A DNA stretch of 64,000 bases from a virus. The notes beneath the pieces were generated by a model. The model made no database searches. It had not been told where the DNA came from and saw nothing but the letters and a program-made list of their open reading frames with translations. The position numbers and the translations under genes are program-made. Location of the stretch: IMG/VR virus record IMGVR_UViG_3300021591_000018, positions 12,754 through 76,753 of that record. One strand, written 5' to 3'. Positions within the stretch are counted from its first letter, which is position 1; each line of letters starts with the position of its first letter. Positions 3,181-53,772 of this stretch are shown here, piece by piece.

Positions 3181-4158
3181 CTAGTCCTCCGTTAGGACAA
3201 CTACCTTACCTACACTTTCTATATTACTTGTCTTGCAGAAGATCGTGTGTGTTTCAGACCCAGCGAAGAGCAGTCCAAGGAAGATTGGCTTCGACGTGTC
3301 AGTAACAATCGCACTGCTGCTGTCACCTCCAGCTGAGAAGCCCCTCTTCTCGATAATAGCACAGTCCTCGAAGTGAACTACTCCTCGGCTGTATTGAATA
3401 TCTCCAGACCACGTCGTCCCTATGACTGATCCTTCTCTCGTGTGGTTAGTAGTTCGTCCAAATTTTTGACAGACGTCCCCAATCATTGGGTCGCGCTTAC
3501 CGTAAACCTTACCGATCTTATAGATTTCAGTCTTTACCTCAACGGTTGGCTGGATGATCGCTAAGTCGACTACGTTGTGTGGGTAACCAATCCACTCCCG
3601 AATCTTGTTCCTTAGACCGAAGAAGCTCCTGAATGGGCAGTTGTAGGCTCCGAAGTTGATCGGGACGTAACGCTTCAGATAGCCTATCGCATCACGAGGG
3701 TTCTTTCCTCCATCGTACGGGCTAGGTTGAAGGTACGGATCTCCTATCTTCGCTTTGTTCTCCTGTGCTCCACAGTGGTTGTTGCAGAGGATCACGAGCC
3801 TCTCATCCTCCTTGTCGATTGCAAACCATCCAAGCGTACACGCAGTACCCTTGTAGTGTATAGCTGAGATTCCAGCTACGACTGGTCTGACTCTGCTTCG
3901 CCATCCCTCGGCTTGAAAGGAAAGAGGTCGGATCGGGCCTGTCTCGACGACGTCGACAGGAATTCCCTCGAACTCCTCTGGGATGAGGTCGCGTTTACTG
4001 AGTGCCTCGACTGGCTCCTTCTTCGTTACGTAGACTCTCAGGACCTGCTCCTTTGGGTAGTACTTACCTCCTCTCTTTCTTGGGACGAGGCTCTTTTCGA
4101 TGCTGTGGACGTTTTTCTTCTTCCTTACACATTTCCACAGACGGTCGTACACGCTCAT
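3181..4158 (-). CDS. Trypsin-like (chymotrypsin-fold) serine protease
   Basis: Candidate triad motifs LCNNHC, VDLAII and SAGGDSSS; also CTLGWF and LGLLFAGS. Confidence 0.75.
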   Translation of the reverse strand: MSVYDRLWKCVRKKKNVHSIEKSLVPRKRGGKYYPKEQVLRVYVTKKEPVEALSKRDLIPEEFEGIPVDVVETGPIRPLSFQAEGWRSRVRPVVAGISAIHYKGTACTLGWFAIDKEDERLVILCNNHCGAQENKAKIGDPYLQPSPYDGGKNPRDAIGYLKRYVPINFGAYNCPFRSFFGLRNKIREWIGYPHNVVDLAIIQPTVEVKTEIYKIGKVYGKRDPMIGDVCQKFGRTTNHTREGSVIGTTWSGDIQYSRGVVHFEDCAIIEKRGFSAGGDSSSAIVTDTSKPIFLGLLFAGSETHTIFCKTSNIESVGKVVVLTED

Positions 4159-4605
4159 CTCTCATCACTCCGAGTGCTTCAAGTAAACACTCATACCGGT
4201 TAATGCCCTTTCGAATGTACGACAATGCAAGTTCGTAGTCAGCTGGGAAGACAAGTGCGTCTGTCAACTTATTCAAAGCTGTATTGTAGAGATAGATCGC
4301 ACAGTTCTCAACTTCGGCTAGATAGGCGTAGATCTGTGTCTGGATCGTTGCGTAGTCGATACAGTAAGTTCGTTCCTCCTCTGTACGGTACGTCTTGAGG
4401 TCACCAACAACGTCCTCCTTCAGTAAGTCAGGAATGCCGATGATCTTCCAGTTGTCAACTATCTTCGAAACCGACACACGATTCGTAAAACCGAGTTCCT
4501 CGTGGATACGCTTTCCAAGTCCTGATCCACGCATCTGACGTGGGAACAGCACCTTGAGCGGGTCAAGTAACAGCACGACGATTTTCGTTACGCCAAGTGT
4601 ACCTT
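4064..4605 (-). CDS. PD-(D/E)XK nuclease (Cas4/RecB-like, no Fe-S cysteines); start uncertain
   Basis: GKRIHE, GIPDLL, DLKT and QTQIYAY motifs; the N-terminal ORF extension overlaps queC. Confidence 0.65.
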
Positions 4606-12985: not shown

Positions 12986-13229
12986 AACCGTTCACCTCCT
13001 TCCACTTGAGGTAGAGTGTTGCACAATACCCAACTATGTCGGCAAGCTCATCGAGGAATTTGCGGCTTTCAATATCGATGTAGCGTAGTCGTATGGCTTT
13101 CATCTCAAGGACTCGTTGAAGAGTTTCGACCTCCAGATGTCGCCATAGGTCACCGTACTGTCGTTCCTTGACGTTTCCAACTTCGAACTCACAAAGGTCT
13201 CGAATTGCGTCTATGACTTCTTGTACCAT
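12957..13229 (-). CDS. Small all-helical nucleotide-modification-associated protein (DUF1599/MazG-like)
   Basis: K..QYGD.W, K..RL and DELADIVGY pattern; adjacent to the dpdA-like gene. Confidence 0.55.
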   Translation of the reverse strand: MVQEVIDAIRDLCEFEVGNVKERQYGDLWRHLEVETLQRVLEMKAIRLRYIDIESRKFLDELADIVGYCATLYLKWKEVNGCEVLADSTY

Positions 13230-14271
13230 GGCATAATCACCCCAAGGTCAGTCTGCAAGACTTCGACTAACTTATCGAATGTAAGATCTTCGATCTGTTT
13301 GTTGTAACCTCTCTGGAATCGACACTTCGTTATTGTTGCGAAGTACTTCGTCTCATGAGGTAGGATTTGCTTCTGTAAGTGGAGGACGACATCTACCATG
13401 TGCTCAGTTTGACGCTGAACTCTCGGTTCATCCATTGGGAGTCGTCTACCTTGTTCGTCGTAAAGTGGTCTCGGTTGGCCTGTCAAAATTACGTGGACGT
13501 TTGGCTTTGCCATCAACCGGAGAATTAGTCGTCGGTATCGTAGATTTGCCTTACCCCATTCGAACTGGTAAGGTCGCCCCGATTGTGTTCGGGCTGTTGC
13601 AACTCCCTCAAGCCATGCACCAATCCACTGCCAGATATCGGTTACGCTATCGATGACTATCGTTCCTTCATTGATTTCCTTTAGAAGTCCGACAGCCTCT
13701 TCGACTGCCTCGAGTGACTTCACTGGATCAACTTCAGCTGTATTCAAGTCAAGCTGTGCTGCTTCGAATACCCGTATGTCCTTACTCTTGAACGGCTCCT
13801 TCAGCAACAATGGCGCCACTCCAAACTCCGTATCTATGACATGGATCGGTTCCGGGGCCGTAAGTGCGAAATGTGTCTTGCCCACATCCGGGGTGATGAG
13901 GATACGCCGGGGTGGCAGAGAGGACCTGGGCCGGTCGAAAGAAAACCGTCCTCATCACCTTAACGTGACGGTGAGGATGCCCGGGTCGCATAGCGAGGTC
14001 AGTCCTCGGTTGGGAAGTGGTTTTCCCACCTCACCGTCTTTCCGTGGTGGTCCGACCACGTGGGTTCTTGGTCCTGAGTTACCCCGTGGCGCAATGGATC
14101 CGCCCTGTCCCACTCAGGACCACCCACCCGGGCGTCCACTATTCCTCACCACCATTCCGGTGGGCCCCAGACGAGCACTTTCAGCCCCGTTTTCTTTACG
14201 ATCTTGTCAGGGGTCTTCCAGACGTCGTCGTATGACTTCTCTTCCTCCGCACCCATCAAATTCCACGACAT
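13211..14271 (-). CDS. Intron-split P-loop ATPase (AAA_24/Sak4-like, RecA fold); exon 1 14271-14155, exon 2 13885-13211, 263 aa after splicing
   Basis: Exon 1 (MSWNL...KVLVWGPPE) plus exon 2 (VGKTHFALT...IDTE...VIDSVT) gives Walker A GPPEVGKT. GAGGTG RBS precedes ATG 14271. Confidence 0.85.
13886..14154 (-). ncRNA. 269-nt archaeal bulge-helix-bulge (BHB) intron in an mRNA
   Basis: GCCCA-CCGG-AAU-GGUGGUGAGGA pairs with UCCUCAUCACC-CCGG-AUG-UGGGC. Canonical cuts restore the frame and Walker A. GC-rich, with many stems. Confidence 0.88.
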
Positions 14272-14348
14272 ACGAACACCTCTCGAGGATCACCTCGATA
14301 TATGGTCGAGGAAGAAATCAGGGTAATCGGACAAACTGAGTGGTCGCA

Positions 14349-15413
14349 TTACTGAACTTCAACTGAGAGGATGGTCTCTTCTTCTGGGGGAACTCTGAAC
14401 TCAGGCTCTGCATACACACCGAAGACGTTGATGCCAATTCTCTGCTTCGTCGTATCGACGGTCCTGTTGACGGGATCCCATCCAGGCATCGAAACGGTCC
14501 GACCGAGGACGAAGATGTGGCTTCCTGCACCGAAGTTAATGAGGCTGAAGATCTCAGGGTGAACCCAGCACATGATGCCCTCAGCAGTCAAGTCCATTAG
14601 TGTTTCGTCCTCTAGTACGAAGAAGGCATTGCCGGTTCTTGTTGGCTCACGTCTGATGAAGACGACGTCACCCTCGACGATGACAATTCGATAGTTGTCC
14701 TGTGCGTGCTGCTGATGCCACTGTGGTAGAGTTGAGCAAGTTGCTTTGAGTGAGTCTGGAGCCTTCCTTAGTATATCACAGATCGTCTCATCAGTGACAT
14801 CTGGGAACTCAGACAGTTCGATCGGAGTGAACTTCGTCGCTGACGTCATACTGCAGACGTATTTGTCCGGGAACTCGGATGTCTTTCTGGCTGCAAATCT
14901 AACAGGCGTCGTAAGTGGCGGTAGTGTGTCTGCAAGGTCGCCTCTGTGGACCATTATGCCAAGCTTCCAGTCACCACCAGAAGCTGGGCGGAACAGTCCG
15001 ACAGACTGACGTAGGTAGACTGGCTGTGAGATATCGATAGTCTGTCCAGATGGCATCCTGAAGATCGGCTTCCCTGTTGCATCGACAAGTCCCTGCTGGA
15101 TAGCCAACGTCGGGTTGACTTTGAAGAGCTCCAGTGCTTGCTGTCTCCTCCTTGCGAATACATCCATCTTTGCATTGTACCCAAGGAAGATGCCGTCCCA
15201 CTGAACCATCCCTGGGAATCTCAACATCGTCTTCAGTTCACGGTACAGCATGAATCTGGCACGTCTCTCAACCTGGTCGGGATCCAACTTCGGATGTACC
15301 TGTGCAATCTCCTGGTAGTACTGCTGTAGTTTCTGCTGGAGCTCCGTCACCGGTATCTGCAGTTTCTGCGACCACTCAGCAATCAGTCTATTCGTCTTCT
15401 CCCTTTCACTCAT
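14349..15413 (-). CDS. Putative ssDNA-binding (RPA/OB-fold-like) protein
   Basis: Beta-rich C-terminal half (IVEGDVVFIR..., FFVLEDET, FVLGRT), acidic tail, position beside the Sak4-like ATPase. Confidence 0.5.
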   Translation of the reverse strand: MSEREKTNRLIAEWSQKLQIPVTELQQKLQQYYQEIAQVHPKLDPDQVERRARFMLYRELKTMLRFPGMVQWDGIFLGYNAKMDVFARRRQQALELFKVNPTLAIQQGLVDATGKPIFRMPSGQTIDISQPVYLRQSVGLFRPASGGDWKLGIMVHRGDLADTLPPLTTPVRFAARKTSEFPDKYVCSMTSATKFTPIELSEFPDVTDETICDILRKAPDSLKATCSTLPQWHQQHAQDNYRIVIVEGDVVFIRREPTRTGNAFFVLEDETLMDLTAEGIMCWVHPEIFSLINFGAGSHIFVLGRTVSMPGWDPVNRTVDTTKQRIGINVFGVYAEPEFRVPPEEETILSVEVQ

Positions 15414-15971: not shown

Positions 15972-16223
15972 TCAGGCATAGATTCCCGATGGTGCCTCAG
16001 ACTCGTCGTAGCCATAGCCTTGTTGTGTTAGTCGCTTGGCGATCTCGAGACATCCAATCCGTGATGGCAGACTGAGTGTCTCGAGGAGATTTAGGATTGC
16101 AGTTAGTACGGCTACAGAGCGATTCTCCTCTCGCTCAATAGGCCGTATGAGTTTGACGAGCTGTTCGACTTGCCTGTTGATGACCTCGGCTATCTGTTCT
16201 CCATTAAGTTCTTCTCGATCCAA
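15972..16223 (-). CDS. Hypothetical protein
   Basis: 83-aa ORF within the operon. Confidence 0.5.
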   Translation of the reverse strand: MDREELNGEQIAEVINRQVEQLVKLIRPIEREENRSVAVLTAILNLLETLSLPSRIGCLEIAKRLTQQGYGYDESEAPSGIYA

Positions 16224-16711
16224 CGTCCGACCTCCTCAAGTTGCTCGAGGCTTTTTGCACGATAGCAACATATCTTACCGGTGCTGAAAATGTTCAATGT
16301 CACACCGAGCTCTGGCAAACGCAAAGTTGCAGCTGGAAACGTCTCCGGTTCGTAGACGACGTTGTCGAATTTCTGCCAGAGGTCCTCGAGAATGACTGTT
16401 CGGTGAAGGTCGAAGTAAGCTACGACTTGAGCGATACGCACGTCGACAACCTCAACGTTGTTGTAATATCTTTTAATGAGCTCCATAAGTTCATCGACGT
16501 ATTTTTGATAGTTTGCAGACTTAATTCCGTTAAGTGTCACTTTTCCTGACTCTGCTAAGATAGCACGTACACCTGATGGTAACTTGAAGAAGACAGCAGT
16601 GAATCTCCACGGATCATACTTTGCCTTCGGTATGACTTGTGCAACTTCGTCGAGGTCGAATCTCCTGTTCAACTGCACTACGACTACACAGTTCTTGATG
16701 GTGTAGTCCAT
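16190..16711 (-). CDS. tbp: TATA-box binding protein homologue
   Basis: Two TBP repeats: YDPWRFTAVFFKL...ESGKVTLNG and YEPETFPAATLRL...IFSTGKICCYRAKS. Confidence 0.9.
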   Translation of the reverse strand: MDYTIKNCVVVVQLNRRFDLDEVAQVIPKAKYDPWRFTAVFFKLPSGVRAILAESGKVTLNGIKSANYQKYVDELMELIKRYYNNVEVVDVRIAQVVAYFDLHRTVILEDLWQKFDNVVYEPETFPAATLRLPELGVTLNIFSTGKICCYRAKSLEQLEEVGRWIEKNLMENR

Positions 16712-20393: not shown

Positions 20394-20576
20394 TCACCTC
20401 CTCAACAACCTACGTAAGTCGAGTTTAGTCTCCTCCTCTCCATGCAAGATTCTCCGTATGTAGTTCCTACGATTACGTTTCCTCGGGAAGGGACTCTTGC
20501 TAAGATTAGTCTTAGGAATCTTTGGTGTTTCCCGTCTTACCTTACCTGCTTTAGTTAAGCTTCCATGAGTTGGCAT
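20394..20576 (-). CDS. rps30e: Ribosomal protein eS30 homologue
   Basis: MPTHGSLTKAGKVRRETPKI...PRKRNRRNY matches the eS30 signature HGSL.KAGKVR.QTPK; GGTGA RBS. Confidence 0.9.
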   Translation of the reverse strand: MPTHGSLTKAGKVRRETPKIPKTNLSKSPFPRKRNRRNYIRRILHGEEETKLDLRRLLRR

Positions 20577-22474: not shown

Positions 22475-24553
22475 TCAATTAAATTTTGAGACGGTTCCAT
22501 CAAACAGATGGCGTTGACGATATTCCTCCTGTTTGCCTTGATTCCAGTTCTGTACAGGACGGTAGTATCCCGTGATTCGACTGTAAACCTCACAAGTGCT
22601 CTTACATGACGGACAGACGTCATGATGTCCTGGCCAATATCCACAGTTCGGACAGATACTGAACGTAGGTGTGATGGTTACGTACGGTAGACGGAAACTG
22701 TAGAAGATTCGTCGTATGAGCTTGCTACATCCTTCCCAGGATGGCAAAGCTTCTCCTAGCCAGGTGTGGAAGACAGTCCCTCCAGTGTAAAGCTCCTGTA
22801 GAAGTTCCTGATGTTCGAGTGCCTCAGCAAGGCTGAACTCTACCCACACCGGCAGTTGTGTTGAGTTCGTATAGTATGGCGTCTCCTTACCTGACGTGTA
22901 GATATCATCGAACATCTGTCGATCAATCAACGCCAATCTATAACTGCAACTCTCAGCAGGAGTTGCCTCCAGATTGTAGAGGTGACCAGTCTCTTCCTGG
23001 AAGTCAACTAAACGTTCACGCATGAACATGAGGACGTCAATCATGAACTCACGTCCCTCGTCAGTCTCAATTCCCTTACCGAGGTAGTTCATACAGCACT
23101 CATGCCCACCAACGATTCCAATCGTTGAGAAGTGATTTGTCCAGTAGCTACCTGTTGCATCTTTAATCGGTTGAAGGTACTTTTGTGAGTATGGATAGAG
23201 TCCAACTTCAGTTAACTTCTCGACTGTTTTACGTTTCAACTCAAGGCTTTCCTTTGCAAGTTGCATCAATTCGTCCAACATCTCGAAGAATTCATCATCG
23301 TCGTTTGCTATGTAACCAATTCGTGGGAGGTTAATCGTCACGACTCCAATTGAGCCTGTCATTGGGTTTGCTCCGAAATACCCTCCACCTTTCCTGTAGA
23401 GTTGACGTGTGTCCAGACGGAGACGACAACACATACTACGCACTTGGTCTGGACTCATGTCGCTGTTGATAAAGTTCGCAAAGTAAGGCGATCCATACTT
23501 CGCAACCAACTTCCAGAGGGACTCGTCGTCCCAAGTGAAGTCAGGTGTCACGTTATACGTTACTATCGGAAATGTAAAGATCCGTCCATTTGCGTCTCCC
23601 TCGTACATGGCTTCACAATAGACTTCGTTGAACAAGTCGACCTCGTCCTGAAAGTCACCGTAGACGTCGCCTTTCAACTCACCTCCACAGATTACGGCTT
23701 CATTCTCCATAAACTTCGGAACGATTCGGTCGAACGTCACATTGGTGAATGGCGTTTGGAACCCGACTCTCGTCGGAACGTTCATGTTGAAGAGGAACTC
23801 CTGTAGCTCTTGTTTCACTTCATCTCGAGTAAGTCCATCGTATCGTATGAATGGTGCGAGATACGTATCGACGTTGCTGAATGCTTGTGCACCAGCAGCC
23901 TCTCCTTGTAACGTATAGAGGAAGTTCCAAATCTGTCCAAGTGCACTACTGAAGTGCTTAGGTGGTTTACTCTTGATCTTTCCGAAGACACCACCAAAAC
24001 CTTCGATTAACAGTTGTCGTAAGTCCCATCCGACACAGTACGGACCAAGTACACCAAGGTCATGTATGTGGAAGTCACCGTCCTGGTGAGCTTTACGAAT
24101 CCCAGGTGGATAAACTCTCATCAACCAATACTCTGAGATGCTACGCTGTACGAGGTAGCAATTCAAACCTTGCATCGAGTAACCGATGTTCGCATTCTCC
24201 CGAACCATCCAGCTGCTACGATTGAGATACTCGTCAATAACGTCACCTGACTCGATGAGATGTGCCAATCTCCGCATTGTCATACGTTGTTCTCTGTAAA
24301 GTATGTATGCTCTTGCAACCTCATAGTATCCATGCTTCATGAGGACTTTCTCTACGATGTCCTGAATCTCCTCGACAGTCGGGACTCCATCGTCTCCAAA
24401 TCGTCGTCCTATGTACCAGAGAACAGAGTTGACGAGTTTTTCGACGTCTCCTCTCGTACCTACTGCTCGGAAAGCTTTCTCTATAGCTGTCCTGATCCTC
24501 TCACGGTCAAACTCAACAAGACGACCGTTTCTCTTTCGAACGTACTTTACCAT
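22475..24553 (-). CDS. nrdD: Anaerobic (class III) ribonucleoside-triphosphate reductase with ATP cone
   Basis: VRKRNG ATP cone, HIHDL, SMCCRL, TPAES and the glycyl-radical motif YSRITGYYRPV. Confidence 0.95.
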   Translation of the reverse strand: MVKYVRKRNGRLVEFDRERIRTAIEKAFRAVGTRGDVEKLVNSVLWYIGRRFGDDGVPTVEEIQDIVEKVLMKHGYYEVARAYILYREQRMTMRRLAHLIESGDVIDEYLNRSSWMVRENANIGYSMQGLNCYLVQRSISEYWLMRVYPPGIRKAHQDGDFHIHDLGVLGPYCVGWDLRQLLIEGFGGVFGKIKSKPPKHFSSALGQIWNFLYTLQGEAAGAQAFSNVDTYLAPFIRYDGLTRDEVKQELQEFLFNMNVPTRVGFQTPFTNVTFDRIVPKFMENEAVICGGELKGDVYGDFQDEVDLFNEVYCEAMYEGDANGRIFTFPIVTYNVTPDFTWDDESLWKLVAKYGSPYFANFINSDMSPDQVRSMCCRLRLDTRQLYRKGGGYFGANPMTGSIGVVTINLPRIGYIANDDDEFFEMLDELMQLAKESLELKRKTVEKLTEVGLYPYSQKYLQPIKDATGSYWTNHFSTIGIVGGHECCMNYLGKGIETDEGREFMIDVLMFMRERLVDFQEETGHLYNLEATPAESCSYRLALIDRQMFDDIYTSGKETPYYTNSTQLPVWVEFSLAEALEHQELLQELYTGGTVFHTWLGEALPSWEGCSKLIRRIFYSFRLPYVTITPTFSICPNCGYWPGHHDVCPSCKSTCEVYSRITGYYRPVQNWNQGKQEEYRQRHLFDGTVSKFN

Positions 24554-24557
24554 CTGA

Positions 24558-24962
24558 TCACCTCGTGAAGGGGATCTCCTTACCAAAGGGAGTATTCTTT
24601 ACCTCTGGTAAGTTGGTAACATAGGCAACTAATTCAAAACTACAGTTGAACTTAAGAAGGATTTCTCTTAAGTCTTCGATAATATCAGTTGGTAATTCAA
24701 CTTTGAAGGTGACGTTCTCTAAGCTGTAAGTGTAATCTTCACCTGTTGAGGGCAACTTTTCAAGTTCTTCGAGCAAGATGCCGTTGAATGGCCCATATGT
24801 GTAGTTGTAATAGCTAAGTGATGTTAGTCTTCGACCAGTCTTCTGATAGTAGATTCTCTCGAGAAGATATGCTGTTTTGAGAAAGGTCATGACATCTACA
24901 GTTGAGTAACCTAGATTCTTAAGGATCTGACACACTGTTAACGCGTACTCATCTGGATTCAT
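24558..24962 (-). CDS. DUF4065/Panacea (SocA-like) domain protein
   Basis: LKTAYLLE..YY.KTGR.L....Y..Y.YGPF pattern. Confidence 0.55.
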   Translation of the reverse strand: MNPDEYALTVCQILKNLGYSTVDVMTFLKTAYLLERIYYQKTGRRLTSLSYYNYTYGPFNGILLEELEKLPSTGEDYTYSLENVTFKVELPTDIIEDLREILLKFNCSFELVAYVTNLPEVKNTPFGKEIPFTR

Positions 24963-39810: not shown

Positions 39811-40535
39811 TTATTTTGAGACAGCTCCTACGAGTCGCTTGCGGTTGTATTCGATCATCTCCTGAAGCGTATGATGGCAGTTCGCACACCGAATCTCACC
39901 CCAATCGAAGTACTTACGAGTACCACAGAATGGACACCCTGTTATGAAGGTGTAGAACCGTAAGATGGACTCATCGTCTAAGAAGTCGCGGATTACTTCC
40001 TTTGCTGTAGCATCTGGAAGGTAGATGACGGGTTCGAGTGGAGACTCTCTAGTCTTGTCATCGTCATCAAGTACGATCCAACAGTTGTTGTCGCTGGCTT
40101 CTAGTCGAATCTTTAGCTTTCCAATTTGCCGTTCGGGTTTGATGTTTAGGGTTTCGAGTAACATCCTCAATCGATTCAAGTCGGTCATATTCCTAACCTC
40201 CTCTTCCACTCCTCGACCATCTCTTGGAGTGTATGACCACAAACTCGACAACGTTTAGTGTTCCAATCGTAACTCCATTCACAGAATGGACAGCCTTTCT
40301 TATAGGCATAGAACCTGAGAATGAAATCATCGTCGAGAAAGACACGGAGAATCTCCTCAGGATCCGTACGATAAGAGAACGTCAGAATGAAGGTTTGATC
40401 TCCATCACATACTGTTAAATATACGAAGATGTCTTTAGGTTGCCACTCCAGTTTAACTGTTAGCTTACCGAGTCGACGTGTTGGGCTGACGTTTAAGATG
40501 TTCGTTAAATGGATGAGCTTCTGAATGTCCGTCAC
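39811..40535 (-). CDS. Two paralogous Zn-ribbon proteins (39811-~40188, 40185-40535)
   Basis: Both contain MTD..., GKL...LE, FLDD..ILRFY, GCPFC and HTLQEM. Confidence 0.75.
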
Positions 40536-40981
40536 TCGTTTACCTCCTTTATCTTCCTAACCTGCGACTTATGCATCTTTACGGGTAGTAGGGATTTAGC
40601 CTCATCGAACTGGACGATGATGTTGTTTCCTTCAACAGCAATTACTGTGCCTCTCATACCTCGCATAAGTCCTGTGACGACCTCCACTCTGTCGTTGACG
40701 TTGTAAGTCACTTCAGGTGGTCTTACGAGTCGTTCAACTTCTTCGACTGTGACCATTCCTGGGAGAATCCCTCGAATCCATCGACACCCATCCTTGTATG
40801 TTTCGGAGACTAACTGTCGAACGTACTCGTAGTACTGTGTCTCGATGTAAATGTAACCAGGCGTTCTGTCAGAGAATATCATCGAGGTTATTGGGATGTT
40901 TGTCCGTTCAGCTACATCTGCTAACCAGTGTGCTGTTGCCTCTTCCTGATCCCTTAACACACGGATTACGAAGAAAGGCAA
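40532..40981 (-). CDS. spt5: Transcription elongation factor Spt5/NusG homologue
   Basis: NGN domain (FVIRV...QE, PGYIYIE) and KOW motif (DRVEVVTGLMRGMRGTVIAV); GGAGGTG RBS. Confidence 0.85.
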   Translation of the reverse strand: MPFFVIRVLRDQEEATAHWLADVAERTNIPITSMIFSDRTPGYIYIETQYYEYVRQLVSETYKDGCRWIRGILPGMVTVEEVERLVRPPEVTYNVNDRVEVVTGLMRGMRGTVIAVEGNNIIVQFDEAKSLLPVKMHKSQVRKIKEVNE

Positions 40982-41019
40982 TCTAACACCTCCAATTGTG
41001 AGTTATACATCTTAGTGTC

Positions 41020-41070
41020 ACCTCATATTTAAATTTTTTCTCTCTCAAAAAATTTTTTGTGACGGTTCCA
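41020..41070 (-). promoter_or_regulatory. Conserved ~38-bp motif with purine run and TATA-like TTTAAATA upstream of spt5
   Basis: TGGAACCGTC-A/T tract-TGAGAGAGAAA..TTTAAA; related copies at 22463-22499, 30773-30810 and 39793-39829. Confidence 0.55.
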
Positions 41071-41550
41071 GGTTTTCGTTAACTGTTAGACCTGTGACTC
41101 ATTTAACGGTAGACTAATGGATTGATAGACTGAAAGTTTGATGACTGAAGTTCTGACAAAATGATTAACTTACACTGTGGGTCGCTCGGCGACTGTCGGA
41201 CGGTTTGCGTTGACTGTGCCTTCAAGCTTCACTGACAGCTGTTGATGAAGATGATCATCATCGTGAGGGCAGTAAGTGTGAAGGGTGGGCTCCAGTTTCA
41301 GCATTTCACTCAACTTTAGTCGTCCAGTCGAGCAGTTTGCTGAGTTGACAGTTGAAATTTCATCGGGTTGTTGATTTAACTGTTACTGACGGTTGTTGAT
41401 GATGATGATGAAGAATATGACAGGATTTTAGTCCACAATTGTTCGACGATTAATCGTCGCAAAATTTTAAATATTGGTTCACCGATATACTCCTTGGATG
41501 ACGTTTGAACGGCTGTTAACTGTGCGTCTTGCATCTGGGAGGTCGATGAC

Positions 41551-41847
41551 TTGGCGAGAGGCCGACCTGGTGCCCCGTTGAGACGAGCAAGGGTGGGGCG
41601 CATCTACCGAGTCGTACTGCGTCTTCCAGGACTGGAGGTTGTGCTGCGAGCCGCCCTCTGCCTCCACTGCAACCAGGTGACTGTGCCTCGCACCACTGTG
41701 CCTCGTTGTTGCCCGATCTGTAAGACATGGTGGGATACAGTTGACGAAGAGACCATTGTACTTGAGAAAGACGTTGCAACTGACAGATGGCATCTCGTCG
41801 AGTCAGACCTCAAGGCTGTTCGCGTTTACACCGGACTGCCGTTCTAG
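41551..41847 (+). CDS. Zn-finger protein; lone plus-strand gene in the left arm
   Basis: CLHC...CPIC; GGAGGT RBS; TTTAAATATTG at 41466. Confidence 0.55.
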   Translation: MARGRPGAPLRRARVGRIYRVVLRLPGLEVVLRAALCLHCNQVTVPRTTVPRCCPICKTWWDTVDEETIVLEKDVATDRWHLVESDLKAVRVYTGLPF

Positions 41848-42075
41848 CCACCTCGAGGACGCCCTAACACATACAGTGACTGCTGCCGGAGGCGACTCGC
41901 ACTAACTTACACGATGACGTATGAGTGGCCGGGTGGCGGCTCACTACATCCAATCGATGACTGACAGGTGCCGGGTGGTGGGCTCGTTCTCACGTTTACG
42001 GTTTACGTTTCGTTCGTTTCGACAACAGAGCGTGCGTTAAGTCACCTTGATCGAAAAAAGGGGGAAGTAAGTCGC

Positions 42076-42432
42076 TCACTCGGTGTTTGCTGGTCTGAAG
42101 ACGTAGATGCGAGGTCCGAGTCCCTCGATTATGCCAACCTGGACGTCGGGATCCTTGTCTAGCCGCTCGATTAAGGCGTAGACCTGGGGGTTGTGGATAA
42201 CGCCTTGCTTCGCGTCGTATTGTGACATGACCTGCTTGATCTGCCGGAATGTCAGTCCTATGTTTCTCTTGCCAGCCTCGACGAGGGCCTTCTTGATACC
42301 CTCGTAGTCAAACCTCCGTCGGGTCAGTCGACTGCGCTCCTTTAGTGACTTTAGGGATGTCGGGTCAATCTTCACGCCCAGCTTGCTTAGGTCGATCTTT
42401 GCGTCCTTGTGTTCACTCATTATTCTCACCAT
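42076..42432 (-). CDS. Hypothetical protein (possible wHTH)
   Basis: 118-aa ORF followed by a pyrimidine/T-rich terminator-like tract. Confidence 0.6.
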   Translation of the reverse strand: MVRIMSEHKDAKIDLSKLGVKIDPTSLKSLKERSRLTRRRFDYEGIKKALVEAGKRNIGLTFRQIKQVMSQYDAKQGVIHNPQVYALIERLDKDPDVQVGIIEGLGPRIYVFRPANTE

Positions 42433-44826: not shown

Positions 44827-45018
44827 CTAAATAACCCTTACACCCCTATACTCACACTCAATACCCCACAACTCACCACCTTTCTTACCTTTCCTAACCA
44901 CCACCTTCCACATCCCACCTTTACAATCTTCATACCTACTACAATTCTTACAAATACCCCTTAAACAACCCAAAAAATTCTTTTCAACTCTTATAACCTT
45001 AACAAACCTATCATACAT
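44827..45018 (-). CDS. C-less Cys-rich small protein (same family as 43976-44245)
   Basis: RGICKNC...WKVVV......LWGIECE.R.VRV. Confidence 0.7.
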   Translation of the reverse strand: MYDRFVKVIRVEKNFLGCLRGICKNCSRYEDCKGGMWKVVVRKGKKGGELWGIECEYRGVRVI

Positions 45019-45232
45019 CTATATCACCATTCTCTTCCCTTTACAAAAATCACCTTTACAATATCTATCAATTCTTTCTTTCGGTCTCTTCCCCACGTGT
45101 CCCCGTGAAATTGGTTAGACGAACTGAAAACGGAAACTCAAACCGCACGTACGACCTAAGAACCCGACAGTTAGCGGACATTGACAGTCGGTCAACACAC
45201 ATAAATATCAGTAAACAGTCAATATCTACAGC

Positions 45233-45694
45233 TTGGACTGTAAAGTCTGTCAGTTGCCGGATGCCCCGGAGATCGTAAGACGTATCAAAGCCAACGAAAT
45301 CTCAATAGCCGAAGGAGCGAAGCTACTCGGTGTTAGTTACCGAGAACTCTGGTTGCACCTTAAGAATTGTGTGGTCGACAAGCCACGCGAAACTTCAGTT
45401 GATACACTCCAACTACTCGAGGAATTGCTGCGCATCCTACGACAGAAGCTGCTTGAGCTCGACAGAATGGAAGTCTCAACAGCCAACATTTCCGCTCTTG
45501 CTAAAGTCGCCGACAGTCTACGGAAGACTTGCATGGACATCGAGCGTCTAACAGGTAAATTAAGAGCGGCACCGCTTATACAGCTGCAGAAGATCACCAT
45601 CCACTACGAGAACCTTCTACAGATCATCTCAACGGAACTTTGTCCTGAATGTCGGCGTAAAGTCCTGAAGAAGCTCGAGGCGATGACAGTATGA
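45233..45694 (+). CDS. Putative terminase small subunit
   Basis: N-terminal HTH and coiled coil; overlaps the large terminase start. Confidence 0.6.
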   Translation: MDCKVCQLPDAPEIVRRIKANEISIAEGAKLLGVSYRELWLHLKNCVVDKPRETSVDTLQLLEELLRILRQKLLELDRMEVSTANISALAKVADSLRKTCMDIERLTGKLRAAPLIQLQKITIHYENLLQIISTELCPECRRKVLKKLEAMTV

Positions 45695-48231
45695 TCGATC
45701 CGAGAGAGAAAACCATCAAGATACTAAAAGCATTAGAAGACCCTGTCTACTTCTGTGAAGACGAGTACTTTCTCGGTGCGAAGCTCTACCCGAAGCAAGC
45801 TGAGGTGCTACGGAAGTTCTATAACGGTGGATACAATGAACTTGTACTCATCGCCGGGATGAGATGTCTTTCACCAGAAACCATCATCTACACAAACCCG
45901 TATCCAAAGCCGCTGAAGGAGTTGAACGAGGACGACCTTGTTCTTACGTTCCGTAACGGTAAATTCGAGTGGTGCAGATGCCAACTCATACGTCAACGCG
46001 CACGTATGGTCTACCGTCTTGTAACGTACTCAGGACGTGAAATCTACGCAACTGAGAATCACCCGATTCTAACGTCGAGAGGCTGGATGACGGTTTCATC
46101 AATGCTCGAATCGACCTCGTTACCTTACGTTGCAATGTGCCACAAAGTTCCTCCACCACTTCACCCAATACACGATCCAGATTATGCGACTGCTGTTGCC
46201 CTATTCCTCTCAGAGGGTTGCTGGATAACTTCGACTCCACTCTTCTCGAATCGTGACCCTGAGCTGATCGACACTTTGCGAACTGTACTAAAACGTCGAT
46301 TTAATGGAGAGTTACGTGGAGGACCGAAGGACTTTCGCATCATAAGTAAACAATTCCGTGAGGAGCTACATGAACTAAAAGGCAAGAAGTCCGCTGAGAA
46401 GTTCATCCCAAAGAGAGTCTTCGAACTTGACGATGAAAGTCTTAAGAAATTCATCTACTACTTCTGGAGAGGTGACGGTGGAATCGAAGGTGGTAAAGTT
46501 CACTTCTACAGCACAAGCAAGCGCTTACTGCAACAGCTACAATTTCTCCTCCTCCGATTCGGGATACGTAGCTACTTACGTAGACGTCCACAGTACAAAT
46601 ACTACAAACGTGCGCACCCAGAAATGAAGAGTACGAATGAGAGTTACGATCTCGTCGTACATGACGACATTTCAACGATCATTCCTGAGGCACCAAGGTG
46701 TCAACATAATGGCACATCACCAATGGATAAAATCGGACTCAAGTTAAGAGACCTTCGAGAAATTTGTGAAACCTCACTCTGGAAGCTACGTCAGCTTATG
46801 TGTACGAACACAAAGAACACCATAAGCTTAAAGAATGCACGTAAGATTGCTCATCTCATACCAATGTTCGGATGGGAAGACGTTTACTTCGAACCAATCG
46901 TTAGGATCGAGCCTATCGGAGTTCGTGAGACGTACGACTTATCTGTACCTCATGAAGGTCATGCATTCGTCGCGAATGGTATCATCGTTCATAACAGTGG
47001 CAAGACATTTCTCGCTTCTTGTTTCGCAGCTTACGAGGCGTTCAAGCTCTTGATTAAGCCTGACCCAGCTGCCTACTACAACCTGGCTCCAGGTAGTCCG
47101 ATCTTCATTGTCGTAGTTGCGACTTCTGAGAAGCAGGCTTACGATACGATATTCAACGAAATTAAACAAAAGTTAATGAGAAGTCCGTTCTTCCGTGAGT
47201 ATCATCCACGATTCCTCATGAACGAAATCATCTTCCAGTCAAAGAATGTACGCATACTCTGTGGTACGTCTTCATCTGCCTCATTAGTAGGTCGAAACGT
47301 TAAGTTAGCGATTTTTGACGAGCTGGCTCGATTCGAAGAGTCAACCAGTAAGAGAGGAGCTTGGGAAGTTTACACGTCATTGAAACGTTCAACTGCAACC
47401 TTTGGAAAGGAGGGCTACTGCATTTCGATTTCCTCGATCCGTCATCCAAATGACATTATGATGACTCTCTATCGTCAAGCTCAGACTAACCCAAGGATGT
47501 TCGCACTTAAGTTTGCCACGTGGGAGTTCAACCCAAACTTCAAACTCGAGGACTTTAAGTTCGAACTTCAACGAGACCCACTTGCATTCTGGAGAGACTT
47601 CGGTTCGAAGCCGTTTGCTGGTCAAGCACCCTTCTTCGCTAACATTGACGTCGTACCCTTCGATAGCAGTATACCAAACAACCTTGAGCTGCTCGCACGT
47701 GGAGAGAAGACCTACTTCAATGAGGAGGCAACCTATGTCTTGGCTGGTGACCCTGCTATTCGCCATGATGCATTCGGACTCGCTATCGTCCATGAAGTTG
47801 AACCTGGTCAGTACGTTTGCGACGGACTTTACCGTTTCAAACCAATGGGGACCGACCTTTCTCCAGTCGAGATAAAGAACTTCATCCTTCGCGTACTTGA
47901 CCACTGTAACGTCATAACTGCAGTTTTCGACACCTGGAACTTCCCAGAACTACAGGAGGAAATTCGCTCACATGGTGTCGAAGTGCTCAACCACATCGTC
48001 CGTAAGGAAGATTACGATCGCTTCAAAGAATTCTGTTTCAAACGGTGCATCCGAATATGTGACTATCCAATTCTTCGTCAGGAACTCGAACAACTTCAAA
48101 TTGTCAATGTCAAGAGGGTTGATCACCCACCTGGTGGAAGCAAAGACGTTGCCGATGCATTAGTCAATGCTCTATGGGCGATTTCCGAATTTCAACCTGA
48201 GCTACCGTTGAACGTGGCGGTGATCGTATGA
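45691..48231 (+). CDS. terL: Terminase large subunit containing an intein
   Basis: LYPKQ, Walker A AGMR|SGKT, ATSEKQA, IFDE (Walker B), and nuclease motifs AGDPA..HD and DHPPGGSKDVADA. Confidence 0.92.
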   Translation: MIDPREKTIKILKALEDPVYFCEDEYFLGAKLYPKQAEVLRKFYNGGYNELVLIAGMRCLSPETIIYTNPYPKPLKELNEDDLVLTFRNGKFEWCRCQLIRQRARMVYRLVTYSGREIYATENHPILTSRGWMTVSSMLESTSLPYVAMCHKVPPPLHPIHDPDYATAVALFLSEGCWITSTPLFSNRDPELIDTLRTVLKRRFNGELRGGPKDFRIISKQFREELHELKGKKSAEKFIPKRVFELDDESLKKFIYYFWRGDGGIEGGKVHFYSTSKRLLQQLQFLLLRFGIRSYLRRRPQYKYYKRAHPEMKSTNESYDLVVHDDISTIIPEAPRCQHNGTSPMDKIGLKLRDLREICETSLWKLRQLMCTNTKNTISLKNARKIAHLIPMFGWEDVYFEPIVRIEPIGVRETYDLSVPHEGHAFVANGIIVHNSGKTFLASCFAAYEAFKLLIKPDPAAYYNLAPGSPIFIVVVATSEKQAYDTIFNEIKQKLMRSPFFREYHPRFLMNEIIFQSKNVRILCGTSSSASLVGRNVKLAIFDELARFEESTSKRGAWEVYTSLKRSTATFGKEGYCISISSIRHPNDIMMTLYRQAQTNPRMFALKFATWEFNPNFKLEDFKFELQRDPLAFWRDFGSKPFAGQAPFFANIDVVPFDSSIPNNLELLARGEKTYFNEEATYVLAGDPAIRHDAFGLAIVHEVEPGQYVCDGLYRFKPMGTDLSPVEIKNFILRVLDHCNVITAVFDTWNFPELQEEIRSHGVEVLNHIVRKEDYDRFKEFCFKRCIRICDYPILRQELEQLQIVNVKRVDHPPGGSKDVADALVNALWAISEFQPELPLNVAVIV
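45865..46995 (+). mobile_element. Intein (377 aa) with LAGLIDADG homing endonuclease
   Basis: Starts CLSPET, block B ATENHPIL, endonuclease motifs LFLSEG and FWRGDG, ends FVANGIIVHN followed by Ser. Confidence 0.93.
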
Positions 48232-52600: not shown

Positions 52601-53772
52601 CTCCAGGGTGGAAAGTCCCAGAGAAGCATCTCAGAGAGCTTAACGGTAAGAAGTACATCGTTATCGGTAAGACGTTTAATGTCAAAGGATATAAGAAGCC
52701 TGGTACGATCGTTACTGTGAGTTTCCATACGCTCAACCACTACATCGACAGTCAAACTGGTGAACAGTGGATTCACATCTACGAGCCAAAGTTCATCGAA
52801 GTTCGTGAAGGACAGAAGACACCTGACTCAGCTGAAGACGCAATTAAGATTGCTCACGACCTCGAATTGCTGACCGTCAAGAGACTTGCCCTCACTCGGT
52901 TCCCAATGGATGACAAGCCACACCAGGCAGTCCTTCAACACCACTACCGATGTGAGCTCGAACAACTTCTACCTGATGTCGGTGAACCAGGAAGTCCCTG
53001 GTTTGAGTTAGCATTAGACGAACTGATACAGAGACTTGGTGACCACATTGACAAGATCCGAGTCTTCCTCGGTCGATCTGTTCACACTGACTTCCGAATC
53101 AAAGTCAATGACCACCTTGAGGGCTTCACCATTATGGATGCAAAGCCAGGTGCAATCAAGGAACCCGTAACTTCAGTCGAACAAGCAAAAGAGTTGGAGA
53201 AAGACTGGGACAAGTACTTCAAGCTCTCCAACGATCCACAGACATACATTGCTTCACCACGACGTAAGCTATGGGTCGAACAGAAGAAGAGTGAACCGAA
53301 GGAATGGCTCAACGTCGAACGAGTCGTCAAACCAGGTGAAGTCGGTGCAACTAAACATGAGTACGGTGTCTTCTCAATCTTCGACCGACCAATCGTCTAC
53401 TTTGGCGCTGTTAAACCAGACTTCCTGGAGATGTTCCTCTACGGTAAGAAGTTTAACGGTCGTTGGGTTGTACGTCTACTCCCAAATCCATGGAAGCGAG
53501 AGATGCCACGACGTGAATTCGTCTTACTGATGTGGAAGCCTGAGGACCAAACACCTTACGTCCTTTCAAGTCGTGCTGTCCGGAGGAAATGGATTCCACC
53601 GAAGGGTATCAGTTGCCTACCACCAGAAATACGTCAACAGATACCCGAAGAATACCGCTACTGGAAGTTCGACGACAAACAGAAGCGACTTGAAGTCCGT
53701 GATAAGCTAGTCGAAGCCATTCGTAAAGGGGAGGTGAGAATACGTCCAGTGACGGTCAAACGGAGAAAGTAA
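49696..53772 (+). CDS. Multidomain protein: MBL-fold hydrolase + ASCH/PUA-like + NifX-like + NTase-like + ATP-dependent ligase + LigD-phosphoesterase-like
   Basis: THGHPDH; LITEGKKTA; VICAAIGE; G.TDGDIDVLI; KKYDGFR, FDVLY, EGAVVK, WLKFKK; LQHH...HTDFRI. Confidence 0.75.
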   Translation: MKITFLGTKGFIEESSSDHKYHSSILIERGNTRLLIDYGRLHPKSLDEIKPTHILLTHGHPDHCFGFRDETEDGIDVYMLDRVWNSLPEKVREKLDHKPFHMHHWEKIGDLEVYAFPVSHSIDFPTNGFLIRNDKTVCYCPDVLSITNRKLILRNADIYIGDGSYITDKPGRVRYHKETGRPYGHALIRDQVKWCAQSDVPIVIFTHFGKEAVEHPDKLKEHLKNLSKEFDVKVMEAKDGMTIDTTKLGQPGIYLVPPHARLITEGKKTAIVSTRPCPKQYLDVPIHLIEDKKSYGLIRITECHGPLDAEFVRTQLRHRHQITDREWRDWWPDAKQVYVYDFKIDRLWDEPVPVEVPQGIQKWIRDVRVNLAELTAYALDEEGNLTKFGQAKQYRVNGKTIEIIGSGVERAKKLVEMGVKKVICAAIGEASRTVLEQNGVKVEVRASLIKPERVKEVLKHPELLKEWTDEQLLDDHRICHLWAGKNWKTLPHDLTKEEVKRFHDLLVEEMNRRGMEHTTPLELERSVTTTERQSYDNLKDNLLESSNISEVNKQIVEEVKEPSPYAPVHHIETGEDTIELETVLEAWSKPIILKKGYVTLVGGLSNHGRTDGDIDVLIGDREWVTHIHQPLLFRLGRALPDDLGERIQMMFVGEYGGPFTNHIPIYDLVLIPSADRRLIRMEKVPTRIKQLRDRQAFKEALESYREDEVKPLRFVIPLKGYRAHYRFADLVPEVVEEWFERDVYPIYAQKKYDGFRVLLMKQGDKIIIRSEDGEDVTKRFPKIIEQAKKILPHTCTLDIEAELWKDGKHQPREEAAGYAHARTPPDDSGFVFNVFDVLYFYDESVEHHELSGTIGDLHKHPYELRLRYLSLIDFPQSTDDTPKTPAFNLTPTYVAHNPEELAKLVRKCSDFIASEGAVVKSSKSDYPLDGLTDQWLKFKKMAEIHAIVLDNIETKTKGVYNLVVGVRVPPGWKVPEKHLRELNGKKYIVIGKTFNVKGYKKPGTIVTVSFHTLNHYIDSQTGEQWIHIYEPKFIEVREGQKTPDSAEDAIKIAHDLELLTVKRLALTRFPMDDKPHQAVLQHHYRCELEQLLPDVGEPGSPWFELALDELIQRLGDHIDKIRVFLGRSVHTDFRIKVNDHLEGFTIMDAKPGAIKEPVTSVEQAKELEKDWDKYFKLSNDPQTYIASPRRKLWVEQKKSEPKEWLNVERVVKPGEVGATKHEYGVFSIFDRPIVYFGAVKPDFLEMFLYGKKFNGRWVVRLLPNPWKREMPRREFVLLMWKPEDQTPYVLSSRAVRRKWIPPKGISCLPPEIRQQIPEEYRYWKFDDKQKRLEVRDKLVEAIRKGEVRIRPVTVKRRK

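What the first reader, a model, noticed from the sequence alone, without database searches (positions are those of the whole stretch)
13886..14154. Canonical BHB intron splitting the Walker A motif of a viral ATPase mRNA
Seen on the minus strand: an unannotated 39-codon exon ends ...VWGPPE and then runs into TGG TGG TGA, while the downstream ORF begins VGKT. The junctions fold into a textbook BHB: exon helix GCCCA/UGGGC, 3-nt bulge AUG, 4-bp helix CCGG/CCGG, 3-nt bulge AAU, then an 11-bp helix GGUGGUGAGGA/UCCUCAUCACC. Known: archaeal tRNA-splicing endonuclease cuts after the second nucleotide of each bulge. Here that gives CCG GAA|GUG GGC AAG ACA = GPPEVGKT, an in-frame Walker A. Archaeal mRNA introns are rare (cbf5 is the classic case), and I know of no well-described BHB-spliced mRNA in an archaeal virus. 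Inference: expression of this recombination ATPase depends on host EndA and RNA ligase.
Basis: partly seen in the sequence, partly recalled or inferred. Interest (0 to 1): 0.92.

Follow-up and report, generated by a model that had tools for sequence, protein, structure and literature searches.

The report
tRNA-type intron splitting viral ATPase gene
A 269-base insert that breaks the ATP-binding motif of a replication/recombination ATPase gene in an archaeal tailed virus has the RNA shape that the archaeal tRNA-splicing enzyme cuts, so the virus very probably needs its host's tRNA-splicing machinery to make this protein, something I could not find described in print for viral protein genes.

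Summary
On the minus strand, a 39-codon exon (14271..14155, ending VWGPPE) and a 224-codon exon (13885..13211, starting VGKTHFAL) flank a 269-nt GC-rich insert (14154..13886). The junctions fold into a strict hBHBh' motif: 5-bp helix, 4-bp helix between two 3-nt bulges, 11-bp helix.

- **Strength of the motif:** it is the best Watson-Crick BHB in the 76.7-kb virus record (about 0.02 expected by chance).
- **Splice product:** cutting after the second bulge base gives GPPE|VGKT. The product is a 263-aa Sak4-like (AAA_24) ATPase that aligns end to end with intron-less homologues, with no gap at the junction.
- **Relatives:** a contig whose ATPase is about 77% identical lacks this insert. Relatives carry other BHB introns in the same gene, some with LAGLIDADG endonuclease ORFs. 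One relative's RFC-like gene has three.
- **Virus:** archaeal and tailed (TBP, Spt5, eS30, tail tube). The record holds no EndA or RtcB gene.

The papers I could search report only cbf5 and one Haloferax 5' UTR as BHB-spliced mRNAs. This scan has noted the same kind of intron before on other viral DNA, including a Sak4-like Walker A case (e1-3380807).

Verdict: very probably a real BHB intron; a new variant of a known kind.

The parts
14277..14296 (-). Two Shine-Dalgarno-like motifs (GAGGTGAT at 14296..14289, GAGAGGTG at 14284..14277) upstream of the exon-1 ATG
   Evidence: Read. Relatives L002 and L042 have GGAGGTGA / GAGGTGAT at the same place before their ATG.
14155..14271 (-). Exon 1: 39 codons, MSWNL...LKVLVWGPPE. 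It encodes the N-terminus, the first beta strand and the first half of Walker A.
   Evidence: It aligns with the N-termini of intron-less homologues and ends exactly before [VSTE]GK[TS]. Against L040: 13 identical codons, 13 with synonymous differences, 12 with amino-acid changes.
13886..14154 (-). BHB intron, 269 nt, GC 0.62, no ORF. Left unspliced, the exon-1 frame ends at TGA 14148..14146.
   Evidence: No Rfam family matches it and it holds no homing-endonuclease remnant.
14143..14165 (-). 5' strand of the BHB: h GCCCA (14165..14161), H CCGG (14160..14157), bulge AA|U (14156..14154; cut between 14155 and 14154), h' GGUGGUGAGGA (14153..14143)
   Evidence: Minimum-free-energy fold, pair probabilities 0.73-1.0, strict scan.
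13880..13902 (-). 3' strand of the BHB: h' UCCUCAUCACC (13902..13892), H CCGG (13891..13888), bulge AU|G (13887..13885; cut between 13886 and 13885), h UGGGC (13884..13880)
13949..13959 (-). Internal copy GGUGAUGAGGA that could pair perfectly with the 3' strand of h' and so compete with the BHB
   Evidence: Read. With this hairpin enforced the fold is 5.4 kcal/mol worse than the BHB fold, and its equilibrium pair probability is about 0.
13211..13885 (-). Exon 2: 224 codons plus stop, VGKTHFAL... It is the rest of the AAA_24 / Sak4-like RecA-fold ATPase.
   Evidence: Pfam PF13479, E 4.2e-13, starting at profile position 13 of 195, so the N-terminal part of the domain is missing from this ORF. 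PHROG 124, Sak4-like ssDNA annealing protein, E 1.9e-16.

Best explanation
Window 13886..14154 (minus strand) is an archaeal tRNA-type (bulge-helix-bulge) intron inside the Walker A codons of a Sak4-like AAA_24 ATPase gene of an archaeal tailed virus.

**Shown here**
- The strict hBHBh' fold.
- The in-frame junction, which matches intron-less homologues without a gap.
- Intron-less alleles in close relatives.
- Other BHB introns in the same gene of relatives, some carrying homing-endonuclease ORFs.

**Inferred mechanism**
1. The gene is transcribed as one pre-mRNA.
2. The host splicing endonuclease (EndA) recognises the two 3-nt bulges around the 4-bp helix and cuts after the second nucleotide of each. 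This leaves a 2',3'-cyclic phosphate and a 5'-OH.
3. The host RtcB-type ligase joins the exons, giving ...CCG GAA|GUG GGC AAG..., and probably circularises the 269-nt intron.
4. Only the spliced mRNA encodes the 263-aa ATPase with an intact P-loop, GPPEVGKT. The unspliced mRNA gives a 41-aa peptide.

**Origin (inferred)**
The intron is most likely an ORF-less member or remnant of a population of mobile BHB introns. These spread by LAGLIDADG homing endonucleases into conserved motifs of replication genes in this group of viruses.
For: **The motif**
- The minimum-free-energy fold gives exactly 5 bp / 4 bp with two 3-nt bulges / 11 bp. Pair probabilities are 0.73-1.0.
- It is the top Watson-Crick BHB in the 76.7-kb record. 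About 0.018 are expected genome-wide and about 1e-11 at a fixed junction.

**The junction**
- The spliced 263-aa product aligns 1-255 with 1-260 of intron-less P0003 (61% identity), with no gap at VWGPPE|VGKTHFAL. Exon 1 aligns to the homologues' N-termini.
- Exon 2 alone starts at position 13 of the AAA_24 profile.

**Presence and absence among relatives**
- L040 (about 77% identity over the first 148 residues) reads ...GGA CCC CCT GAA GTT GGG AAG ACG... uninterrupted.
- L002, from a related 76.9-kb virus, is also uninterrupted at this site.

**The same cutting rule restores conserved motifs in other introns**
- L042: 458 nt with a LAGLIDADG ORF and a perfect hBHBh' (outer 10, inner 14 bp); gives RFE|YGKAN.
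- L041: 71 nt, inside the Lys codon of GKT, 8 nt from our site.
- L040: 72 nt at FE|WG. Removing it gives an open 260-aa frame.
- L002: two introns (read by eye).
- RFC-like gene of the same relative: three introns, restoring GKPGTGK|T and ELNASDE|RGID.

**Exon 1 is coding**
- SD-like motifs lie upstream, and against L040 there are 13 codons with synonymous differences and 12 with amino-acid changes.

**Other intron classes and the virus**
- No group I or II intron or any other Rfam family matches.
- The virus is archaeal and carries no EndA or RtcB gene: TBP, Spt5, eS30 and a tail tube protein are present.
Against: - There is no RNA evidence. Spliced reads, circular intron junctions and EndA cleavage could not be examined.
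- No homologue of this particular 269-nt intron was found, so there is no covariation test of its helices.
- The host is unknown, so its EndA type cannot be checked.
- The virus record is only 69% complete, so a virus-encoded splicing enzyme cannot be excluded.
- An internal sequence can compete for the 3' strand of the inner helix. It is disfavoured at equilibrium but could matter during transcription.
- Boundaries shifted by one base, typical of a group I intron (exon ending in U, intron ending in G), would also be in frame (PELGKT).
Confidence: 0.88

Rival explanations
1. The insert is a dead, unspliced insertion (a decayed mobile element) that has inactivated the ATPase gene. The BHB-like fold is a relic, and the virus lives without this protein or with a truncated one.
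For: Splicing was not observed. The intron has no homing-endonuclease ORF. IMG's gene caller annotated only a 202-aa truncated product, P0001.
Against: Both exons are intact, with no frameshift or stop. Exon 1 keeps its SD-like motifs and shows as many synonymous as replacement differences against L040. The BHB is perfect apart from one G.U pair. The junction is exact to the nucleotide. A protein starting at VGKT would lack the first strand and half of the P-loop.
Confidence: 0.07
2. The insert is a small self-splicing group I intron, as is common in Sak4-like ATPase genes of bacteriophages, rather than a protein-spliced BHB intron.
For: Boundaries shifted by one base would give an exon ending in U and an intron ending in G, and would stay in frame (read). 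Earlier notes of this scan report group I introns in the Walker A codons of phage Sak4-like genes.
Against: No match to group I or group II models, even at E <= 1 with permissive filters, and none at gathering thresholds in the whole window. The virus is archaeal. The fold is dominated by a strict BHB. Relatives' introns of 28-72 nt are far too short for ribozymes, yet they obey the same BHB cutting rule.
Confidence: 0.02
3. The BHB is cut mainly to release a functional, stable (circular) non-coding RNA or to act as a splicing switch. Restoring the ATPase frame is then secondary, and the intron has been co-opted for regulation.
For: The intron is unusually GC-rich and strongly structured. It holds a second copy of each arm of the inner helix, which allows mutually exclusive pairings. 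It is kept although it carries no endonuclease ORF.
Against: The alternative fold is 5.4 kcal/mol worse and has negligible equilibrium probability. No known RNA family matches. The C-box-like and D-box-like motifs are not arranged as in a C/D sRNA. No conserved homologue of the intron was found. This reading adds to the main explanation rather than excluding it.
Confidence: 0.15

Closest known systems
BHB intron in the cbf5 (pseudouridine synthase) pre-mRNA of Crenarchaeota (Watanabe et al. 2002; Yokobori et al. 2009, PMC2738675)
   Same: A tRNA-type BHB intron inside the coding sequence of a protein gene. It interrupts a functionally essential codon region, shows presence/absence polymorphism among relatives, and is removed by the tRNA splicing endonuclease and a ligase.
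   Different: cbf5 is a cellular gene and its introns are short (some of 33-39 nt are listed in PMC2738675). Here the gene is viral (a Sak4-like ATPase), the intron is 269 nt, and related viral genes carry several such introns, some with LAGLIDADG ORFs. Splicing is shown for cbf5 but not here.
BHB intron in the 5' UTR of the Haloferax volcanii HVO_1309 mRNA (PMC7714728)
   Same: An mRNA substrate of archaeal EndA outside tRNA and rRNA.
   Different: That intron lies in an untranslated leader of a cellular mRNA. The present one splits a coding motif of a viral gene.
LAGLIDADG-endonuclease-bearing BHB introns of archaeal rRNA genes (my own knowledge: I-DmoI and I-PorI type; BHB in rRNA is cited in PMC7714728)
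   Same: BHB-bounded introns that spread at the DNA level through an intron-encoded LAGLIDADG homing endonuclease. The relatives' introns in L042, L002 and L104 have this design.
   Different: Those sit in cellular rRNA genes. Here they sit in viral protein-coding genes, and the intron in this window has no ORF.
Group I introns in bacteriophage genes, including Sak4-like ATPase Walker A sites
   Same: The same gene family and the same P-loop target are colonised by mobile introns in viruses.
   Different: Those are self-splicing ribozymes in bacterial viruses. This one has no ribozyme signature and has the protein-dependent archaeal BHB design.
12-bp 'putative introns' in the rudivirus SIRV1 (Peng et al. 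2004, as cited in PMC2738675)
   Same: The only earlier suggestion I found of intron-like insertions in protein genes of an archaeal virus.
   Different: Those are 12-bp in-frame indels. [quoted passage not shown]

Membership tests
Archaeal bulge-helix-bulge (tRNA-type) intron | Two 3-nt bulges on opposite strands, separated by a 4-bp helix | tested here: met
   AAU and AUG bulges around CCGG/CCGG. The unconstrained minimum-free-energy fold shows this; pair probabilities are 0.73-0.99.
Archaeal bulge-helix-bulge (tRNA-type) intron | Flanking helices h and h' (the strict hBHBh' form) | tested here: met
   h is 5 bp (GCCCA/UGGGC). h' is 11 bp (GGUGGUGAGGA/UCCUCAUCACC, with one G.U)..
Archaeal bulge-helix-bulge (tRNA-type) intron | Cutting at the symmetric bulge positions and joining the exons gives a functional product | tested here: met
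   In-frame GPPE|VGKT. The 263-aa product aligns with intron-less homologues without a gap at the junction.
Archaeal bulge-helix-bulge (tRNA-type) intron | Intron-less alleles exist in relatives | tested here: met
   L040, L002, P0003, P0016 and P0018 are uninterrupted at this site.
Archaeal bulge-helix-bulge (tRNA-type) intron | Cleavage by EndA and ligation by RtcB, with spliced mRNA and circular intron present in cells | not testable with these tools
No EndA or RtcB gene in the virus record. Host unknown.
Mobile intron with homing endonuclease gene | An intron-encoded LAGLIDADG (or other) endonuclease ORF | tested here: not met
   No ORF and no endonuclease remnant in the 269-nt intron. Relatives' introns in L042, L002 and L104 do carry LAGLIDADG-like ORFs (PF14528, E 2e-4 to 4e-4, just under the cut-off).
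Group I / group II self-splicing intron | A match to the ribozyme covariance models | tested here: not met
   No match at E <= 1 in 13000-15000. No family at gathering score in the window.
AAA_24 / Sak4-like RecA-fold ATPase (PF13479, phrog_124) | Profile match and a Walker A motif GxxxxGK[ST] | tested here: met
   PF13479 E 4.2e-13. phrog_124 E 1.9e-16. The Walker A motif GPPEVGKT is complete only after splicing. ATPase or annealing activity was not tested.

The most novel reading that the evidence does not exclude
A clade of about 77-kb tailed viruses of anaerobic sediment archaea harbours a whole population of protein-spliced BHB introns. They range from 28 to about 550 nt, with or without LAGLIDADG homing endonucleases, and they colonise conserved motifs, above all P-loops, of viral replication genes. 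Viral replication is thereby wired to the host's tRNA-splicing capacity. In this reading the ORF-less, GC-rich 269-nt intron in this window survives because its excised, probably circular, RNA or its competing-helix switch has a function of its own for the virus, such as timing of ATPase expression or acting as a decoy.
Probability: 0.2. Interest if true: 0.88.

Novelty: new variant of a known kind. Interest (0 to 1): 0.78.

Why it matters
According to the papers I could search, BHB introns in messenger RNAs are known from cbf5 and one Haloferax 5' UTR only (PMC7714728, PMC2738675). I found none described in a viral protein gene.

Here a viral replication/recombination ATPase cannot be made without RNA splicing by host enzymes. 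Relatives show the same design at several sites of this gene and three times in an RFC-like gene. This has four consequences:

1. Archaeal viruses carry mobile, protein-dependent introns in coding genes. This parallels the group I introns of bacteriophages, down to the same target motif.
2. Automatic annotation of such viruses truncates or splits essential genes. IMG called only a 202-aa fragment here.
3. Viral gene expression becomes dependent on host EndA and RtcB. That is a testable point of virus-host coupling and a possible target for host defence.
4. These loci are natural substrates for studying how BHB introns move and decay.

Tried and rejected
P0002 is 80% identical and starts at VGKSH, so it probably carries the same intron.
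- P0002 was also not found in viral contigs.

**Searches that found nothing useful**
- Close-relative search in viral contigs with exon 2: nothing. Alignment A1 was too diverse to search with; A2 worked.
- Genome contigs gave only one short, probably mis-binned hit, so there is no host lead.
- Homologues of the 269-nt intron: none among 106 loci by blastn, and none in IMG/VR with a helix-anchored pattern.
- Rfam: nothing.
- tRNA genes: none in the window.

**Ideas tested and dropped**
- C/D-box sRNA inside the intron. There is one RUGAUGA and two CUGA, but not in sRNA order or spacing.
- Endonuclease remnant in the intron: none.
- Competing-helix 'switch': thermodynamically disfavoured by 5.4 kcal/mol. 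Kept only as a minor add-on.
- L013/L014 and L015/L087 have split tblastn matches, but these are in-frame protein insertions, not introns.
- L048 has a LAGLIDADG-containing insert after VFEAA, but I could not define a convincing BHB.
- The highest-scoring strict BHB when G.U pairs count equally (window 45131..44975, minus strand) is G.U-rich and lies in the unusual G-free intergenic zone. I regard it as chance.
- The GC-rich stretch 41499-41988 is non-coding intergenic DNA upstream of the Spt5 gene. I did not treat it as an intron, because the genes on either side are complete.

Full report
**What is in the sequence.**
The window is bases 12754-76753 of a 76,753-base IMG/VR virus record, estimated 69% complete. 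The finding lies on the minus strand.

- A 39-codon ORF starts at ATG 14271, preceded by SD-like GAGGTG motifs. It reads MSWNL...LKVLVWGPPE, then runs into TGG TGG TGA.
- 269 nt downstream, the ORF 13885..13211 begins GTG GGC AAG ACA (VGKTHFAL...).
- That ORF matches AAA_24 (PF13479, E 4.2e-13), but only from profile position 13 of 195, so the start of the domain is missing. It also matches PHROG 124, 'Sak4-like ssDNA annealing protein' (E 1.9e-16).
- IMG's own gene call for this locus is a 202-aa fragment, P0001.

**The fold.**

| Element | 5' strand | 3' strand |
|---|---|---|
| Outer helix h | GCCCA | UGGGC |
| Central helix H | CCGG | CCGG |
| Bulge | AAU | AUG |
| Inner helix h' | GGUGGUGAGGA | UCCUCAUCACC (one G.U pair) |

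- On each strand the bulge lies 3' of the central four bases. This is the arrangement of the canonical pre-tRNA BHB (my own knowledge of the 37/38 intron geometry).
- The energy is -145.3 kcal/mol, against -124.7 +/- 6.3 for shuffles (z = -3.3).
- Pair probabilities for the three helices are 0.73-1.0.

**Is it more than chance?**
I scanned the whole record, both strands, for strict hBHBh' motifs with introns up to 1200 nt.

- If G.U pairs count like Watson-Crick pairs, motifs of this size are not rare. The count falls off as expected for random sequence, and one G.U-rich hit in the odd G-free intergenic zone scores higher.
- Ranked by Watson-Crick pairs, this motif is first (19 plus one G.U; the next has 16).
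- About 0.018 such motifs are expected per genome, and about 1e-11 at one fixed pair of positions.
- The second figure is the relevant one, because the motif sits at exactly the pair of positions that repairs the gene.
- The insert also lies in one of only three stretches of the record where 150-nt windows reach GC 0.60 (GC 0.62 against 0.47 overall).

**The junction.**
Cutting after the second nucleotide of each bulge removes 14154..13886. It joins CCG GAA|GUG GGC AAG ACA, giving GPPEVGKT, a complete GxxxxGKT.

- Most homologues found in the protein database are 250-290 aa long and uninterrupted.
- Their N-termini match exon 1 and continue without a gap into exon 2. Examples are GLKVLVWGEPEVGKTHFAL in P0003, GPPEVGKT in P0016 and GPPETGKTHFALTAPEPIHVIDTEF in P0018.
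- The spliced 263-aa product, built in a script from the window, aligns 1-255 with 1-260 of P0003 at 61% identity and has no gap at the junction.
- Against the uninterrupted gene in L040, exon 1 has 13 identical codons, 13 with synonymous differences and 12 with amino-acid changes. Exon 2 has 61, 104 and 55. Exon 1 therefore evolves as coding sequence.

**Relatives: presence/absence and more introns.**
Scans of IMG/VR and JGI metagenomes with an alignment of homologues returned 101 loci in all.

| Locus | What it carries |
|---|---|
| L040 (about 77% identity over the first 148 residues) | Reads straight through Walker A (GGA CCC CCT GAA GTT GGG AAG ACG). Has a 72-nt BHB intron at FE\|WG (UUCG aa\|a ... 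CGAA aa\|u). Removing it gives an open 260-aa frame. |
| L042 | At almost the same place, a 458-nt intron with a perfect hBHBh' (outer 10 bp, UUCG/CGAA, inner 14 bp) and a 147-aa LAGLIDADG-like ORF (PF14528, E 4e-4, just below the cut-off; motif IAGVIDCDG). Splicing gives RFE\|YGKAN. |
| L041 | A 71-nt canonical BHB intron inside the Lys codon of GKT, 8 nt from our site. |
| L002 (a related 76,879-base virus, G001) | Uninterrupted at Walker A. Has a LAGLIDADG-bearing insert after VIDTE and a 68-nt insert at WG\|K. Both have relaxed BHBs, which I read by eye from the sequence; my strict scanner did not report them. |
| L104 (RFC-small-subunit-like gene of G001) | Three BHB introns of 545 nt (with a LAGLIDADG ORF), 67 nt and 28 nt. 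Removing them restores LLFCGK\|PGTGK\|TACAYAL... and ELNASDE\|RGIDTIRQKV. |

The single cutting rule therefore restores conserved protein motifs in nine independent introns. I take this as an internal validation of the rule and as evidence that these viruses hold a population of mobile BHB introns. The intron in this window is ORF-less and has no detectable homologue.

**What the virus is.**
- It encodes TBP (E 7.8e-27), an Spt5/NusG homologue, ribosomal protein eS30 (E 2.8e-12), family B DNA polymerase, anaerobic ribonucleotide reductase and a tail tube protein.
- Its large terminase carries a LAGLIDADG intein inserted in its own Walker A (AGMR|C...HN|SGKT).
- The nearest GenBank viruses by this ATPase are haloarchaeal tailed viruses, at only 26% identity.
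- It is therefore a tailed virus of an anaerobic archaeon.
- Among the tool's four archaeal control genomes, eS30 is found only in Sulfolobus. Together with the relaxed BHBs in relatives, this is a weak hint of a host from the Thermoproteota/Asgard side with a broad-specificity endonuclease. [quoted passage not shown]
- Earlier notes of this scan point to Bathyarchaeia for similar proviruses. I could not test that.
- The record has no EndA (PF01974) and no RtcB (PF01139) gene. Its 1358-aa ORF has an ATP-dependent DNA-ligase domain, not an RtcB.

**Mechanism.**
- *Shown:* the structure, the junction, the intron-less alleles and the sibling introns.
- *Inferred from established knowledge of archaeal tRNA splicing:*
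  1. Host EndA cuts both bulges.
  2. RtcB ligates the exons and circularises the intron.
  3. Only spliced mRNA yields the ATPase. Unspliced mRNA yields a 41-aa peptide.
- *Competing pairing:* an internal copy of the 5' arm (GGUGAUGAGGA, 13959..13949) could compete for the 3' arm. At equilibrium this is 5.4 kcal/mol worse and has negligible probability, so a 'switch' remains speculative.

**Alternatives.**
- *Dead insertion:* unlikely, given intact exons, coding-type evolution of exon 1 and an intact BHB.
- *Group I intron:* the usual kind in phage Sak4-like genes according to earlier scan notes. It is not supported. No ribozyme model matches even at E <= 1, and the sibling introns of 28-72 nt are too short for ribozymes.
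- *Assembly artefact:* this would not produce a precise BHB.

**Novelty.**
- In the searchable library, PMC7714728 (2020) states that, besides its own Haloferax 5' UTR case, only the cbf5 mRNA intron had been reported.
- PMC2738675 mentions only the unproven 12-bp 'putative introns' of SIRV1 for archaeal viruses.
- Eight full-text searches found no description of BHB introns in viral protein genes.
- Subscription-journal papers are mostly outside that library, so this is absence of evidence only.
- Within this scan, the same kind of thing has been noted repeatedly on other DNA. This includes a 69-base BHB intron in the Walker A of a viral Sak4-like gene (e1-3380807) and capsid, tape-measure and methylase genes of Bathyarchaeia-associated viruses.
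- I class it as a new variant of a known kind. The splicing chemistry is known. The setting is not in the literature I could read: viral coding genes, several sites per gene, some with homing endonucleases.

**Limits.**

Noticed in passing
window 45691-48231 (+): The large terminase gene carries an intein with a LAGLIDADG domain (Pfam Intein_splicing and LAGLIDADG_3) inserted inside its own Walker A: ...LIAGMR|CLSPET...IVHN|SGKTF. Two P-loop genes of one virus are thus interrupted in the P-loop, one at the protein level and one at the RNA level.
   Followed up: partly
L104 (G001:C1:37131-40538), minus strand, about 1240-2163: The RFC-small-subunit-like gene of the related 76.9-kb virus is split by three BHB introns: 545 nt with a LAGLIDADG ORF, 67 nt inside the Lys codon of GKT, and 28 nt at ASDE|RGID. 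All three have an AA|A 5' bulge and almost no outer helix (relaxed HBh' type).
   Followed up: partly
L042 2047-2504; L041 1272-1342; L040 about 584-655; L002 about 3530-4013 and about 4288-4355; L048 about 105-730: The same Sak4-like ATPase gene carries BHB introns at five further sites in related viral contigs, one of them (L002) with a LAGLIDADG ORF. L048 has a LAGLIDADG-bearing insert at a sixth site, but its boundaries could not be resolved.
   Followed up: partly
window 20394-20576 (-): A 60-aa ORF matches ribosomal protein eS30 (PF04758, E 2.8e-12). Among the tool's archaeal control genomes the family is found only in Sulfolobus, a weak hint about the host lineage.
   Followed up: partly
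window 16190-16711 (-) and 40532-40981 (-): The virus encodes a TATA-binding protein (PF00352, E 7.8e-27) and an Spt5/NusG-like elongation factor (protein-atlas score 0.93).
   Followed up: partly
window 40981-42076: About 1.1 kb without a convincing gene lies upstream of the Spt5-like ORF. It includes the second GC-rich island of the genome (41499-41988, GC up to 0.66). Function unknown; no Rfam match.
   Followed up: no
window 44975-45131 (-): This is the highest-scoring strict BHB-like motif when G.U pairs count fully (outer 9, inner 10). It lies at the edge of the G-free intergenic zone noted by other readers and is probably a chance product of the skewed composition.
   Followed up: no
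window 49696-53772 (+) and 22475-24586 (-): A 1358-aa ORF in the head module combines metallo-beta-lactamase-fold and ATP-dependent DNA-ligase domains (PF01068, E 9e-19). A 703-aa ORF is an anaerobic ribonucleotide reductase NrdD (E 1e-191), which implies an anaerobic host.
   Followed up: no
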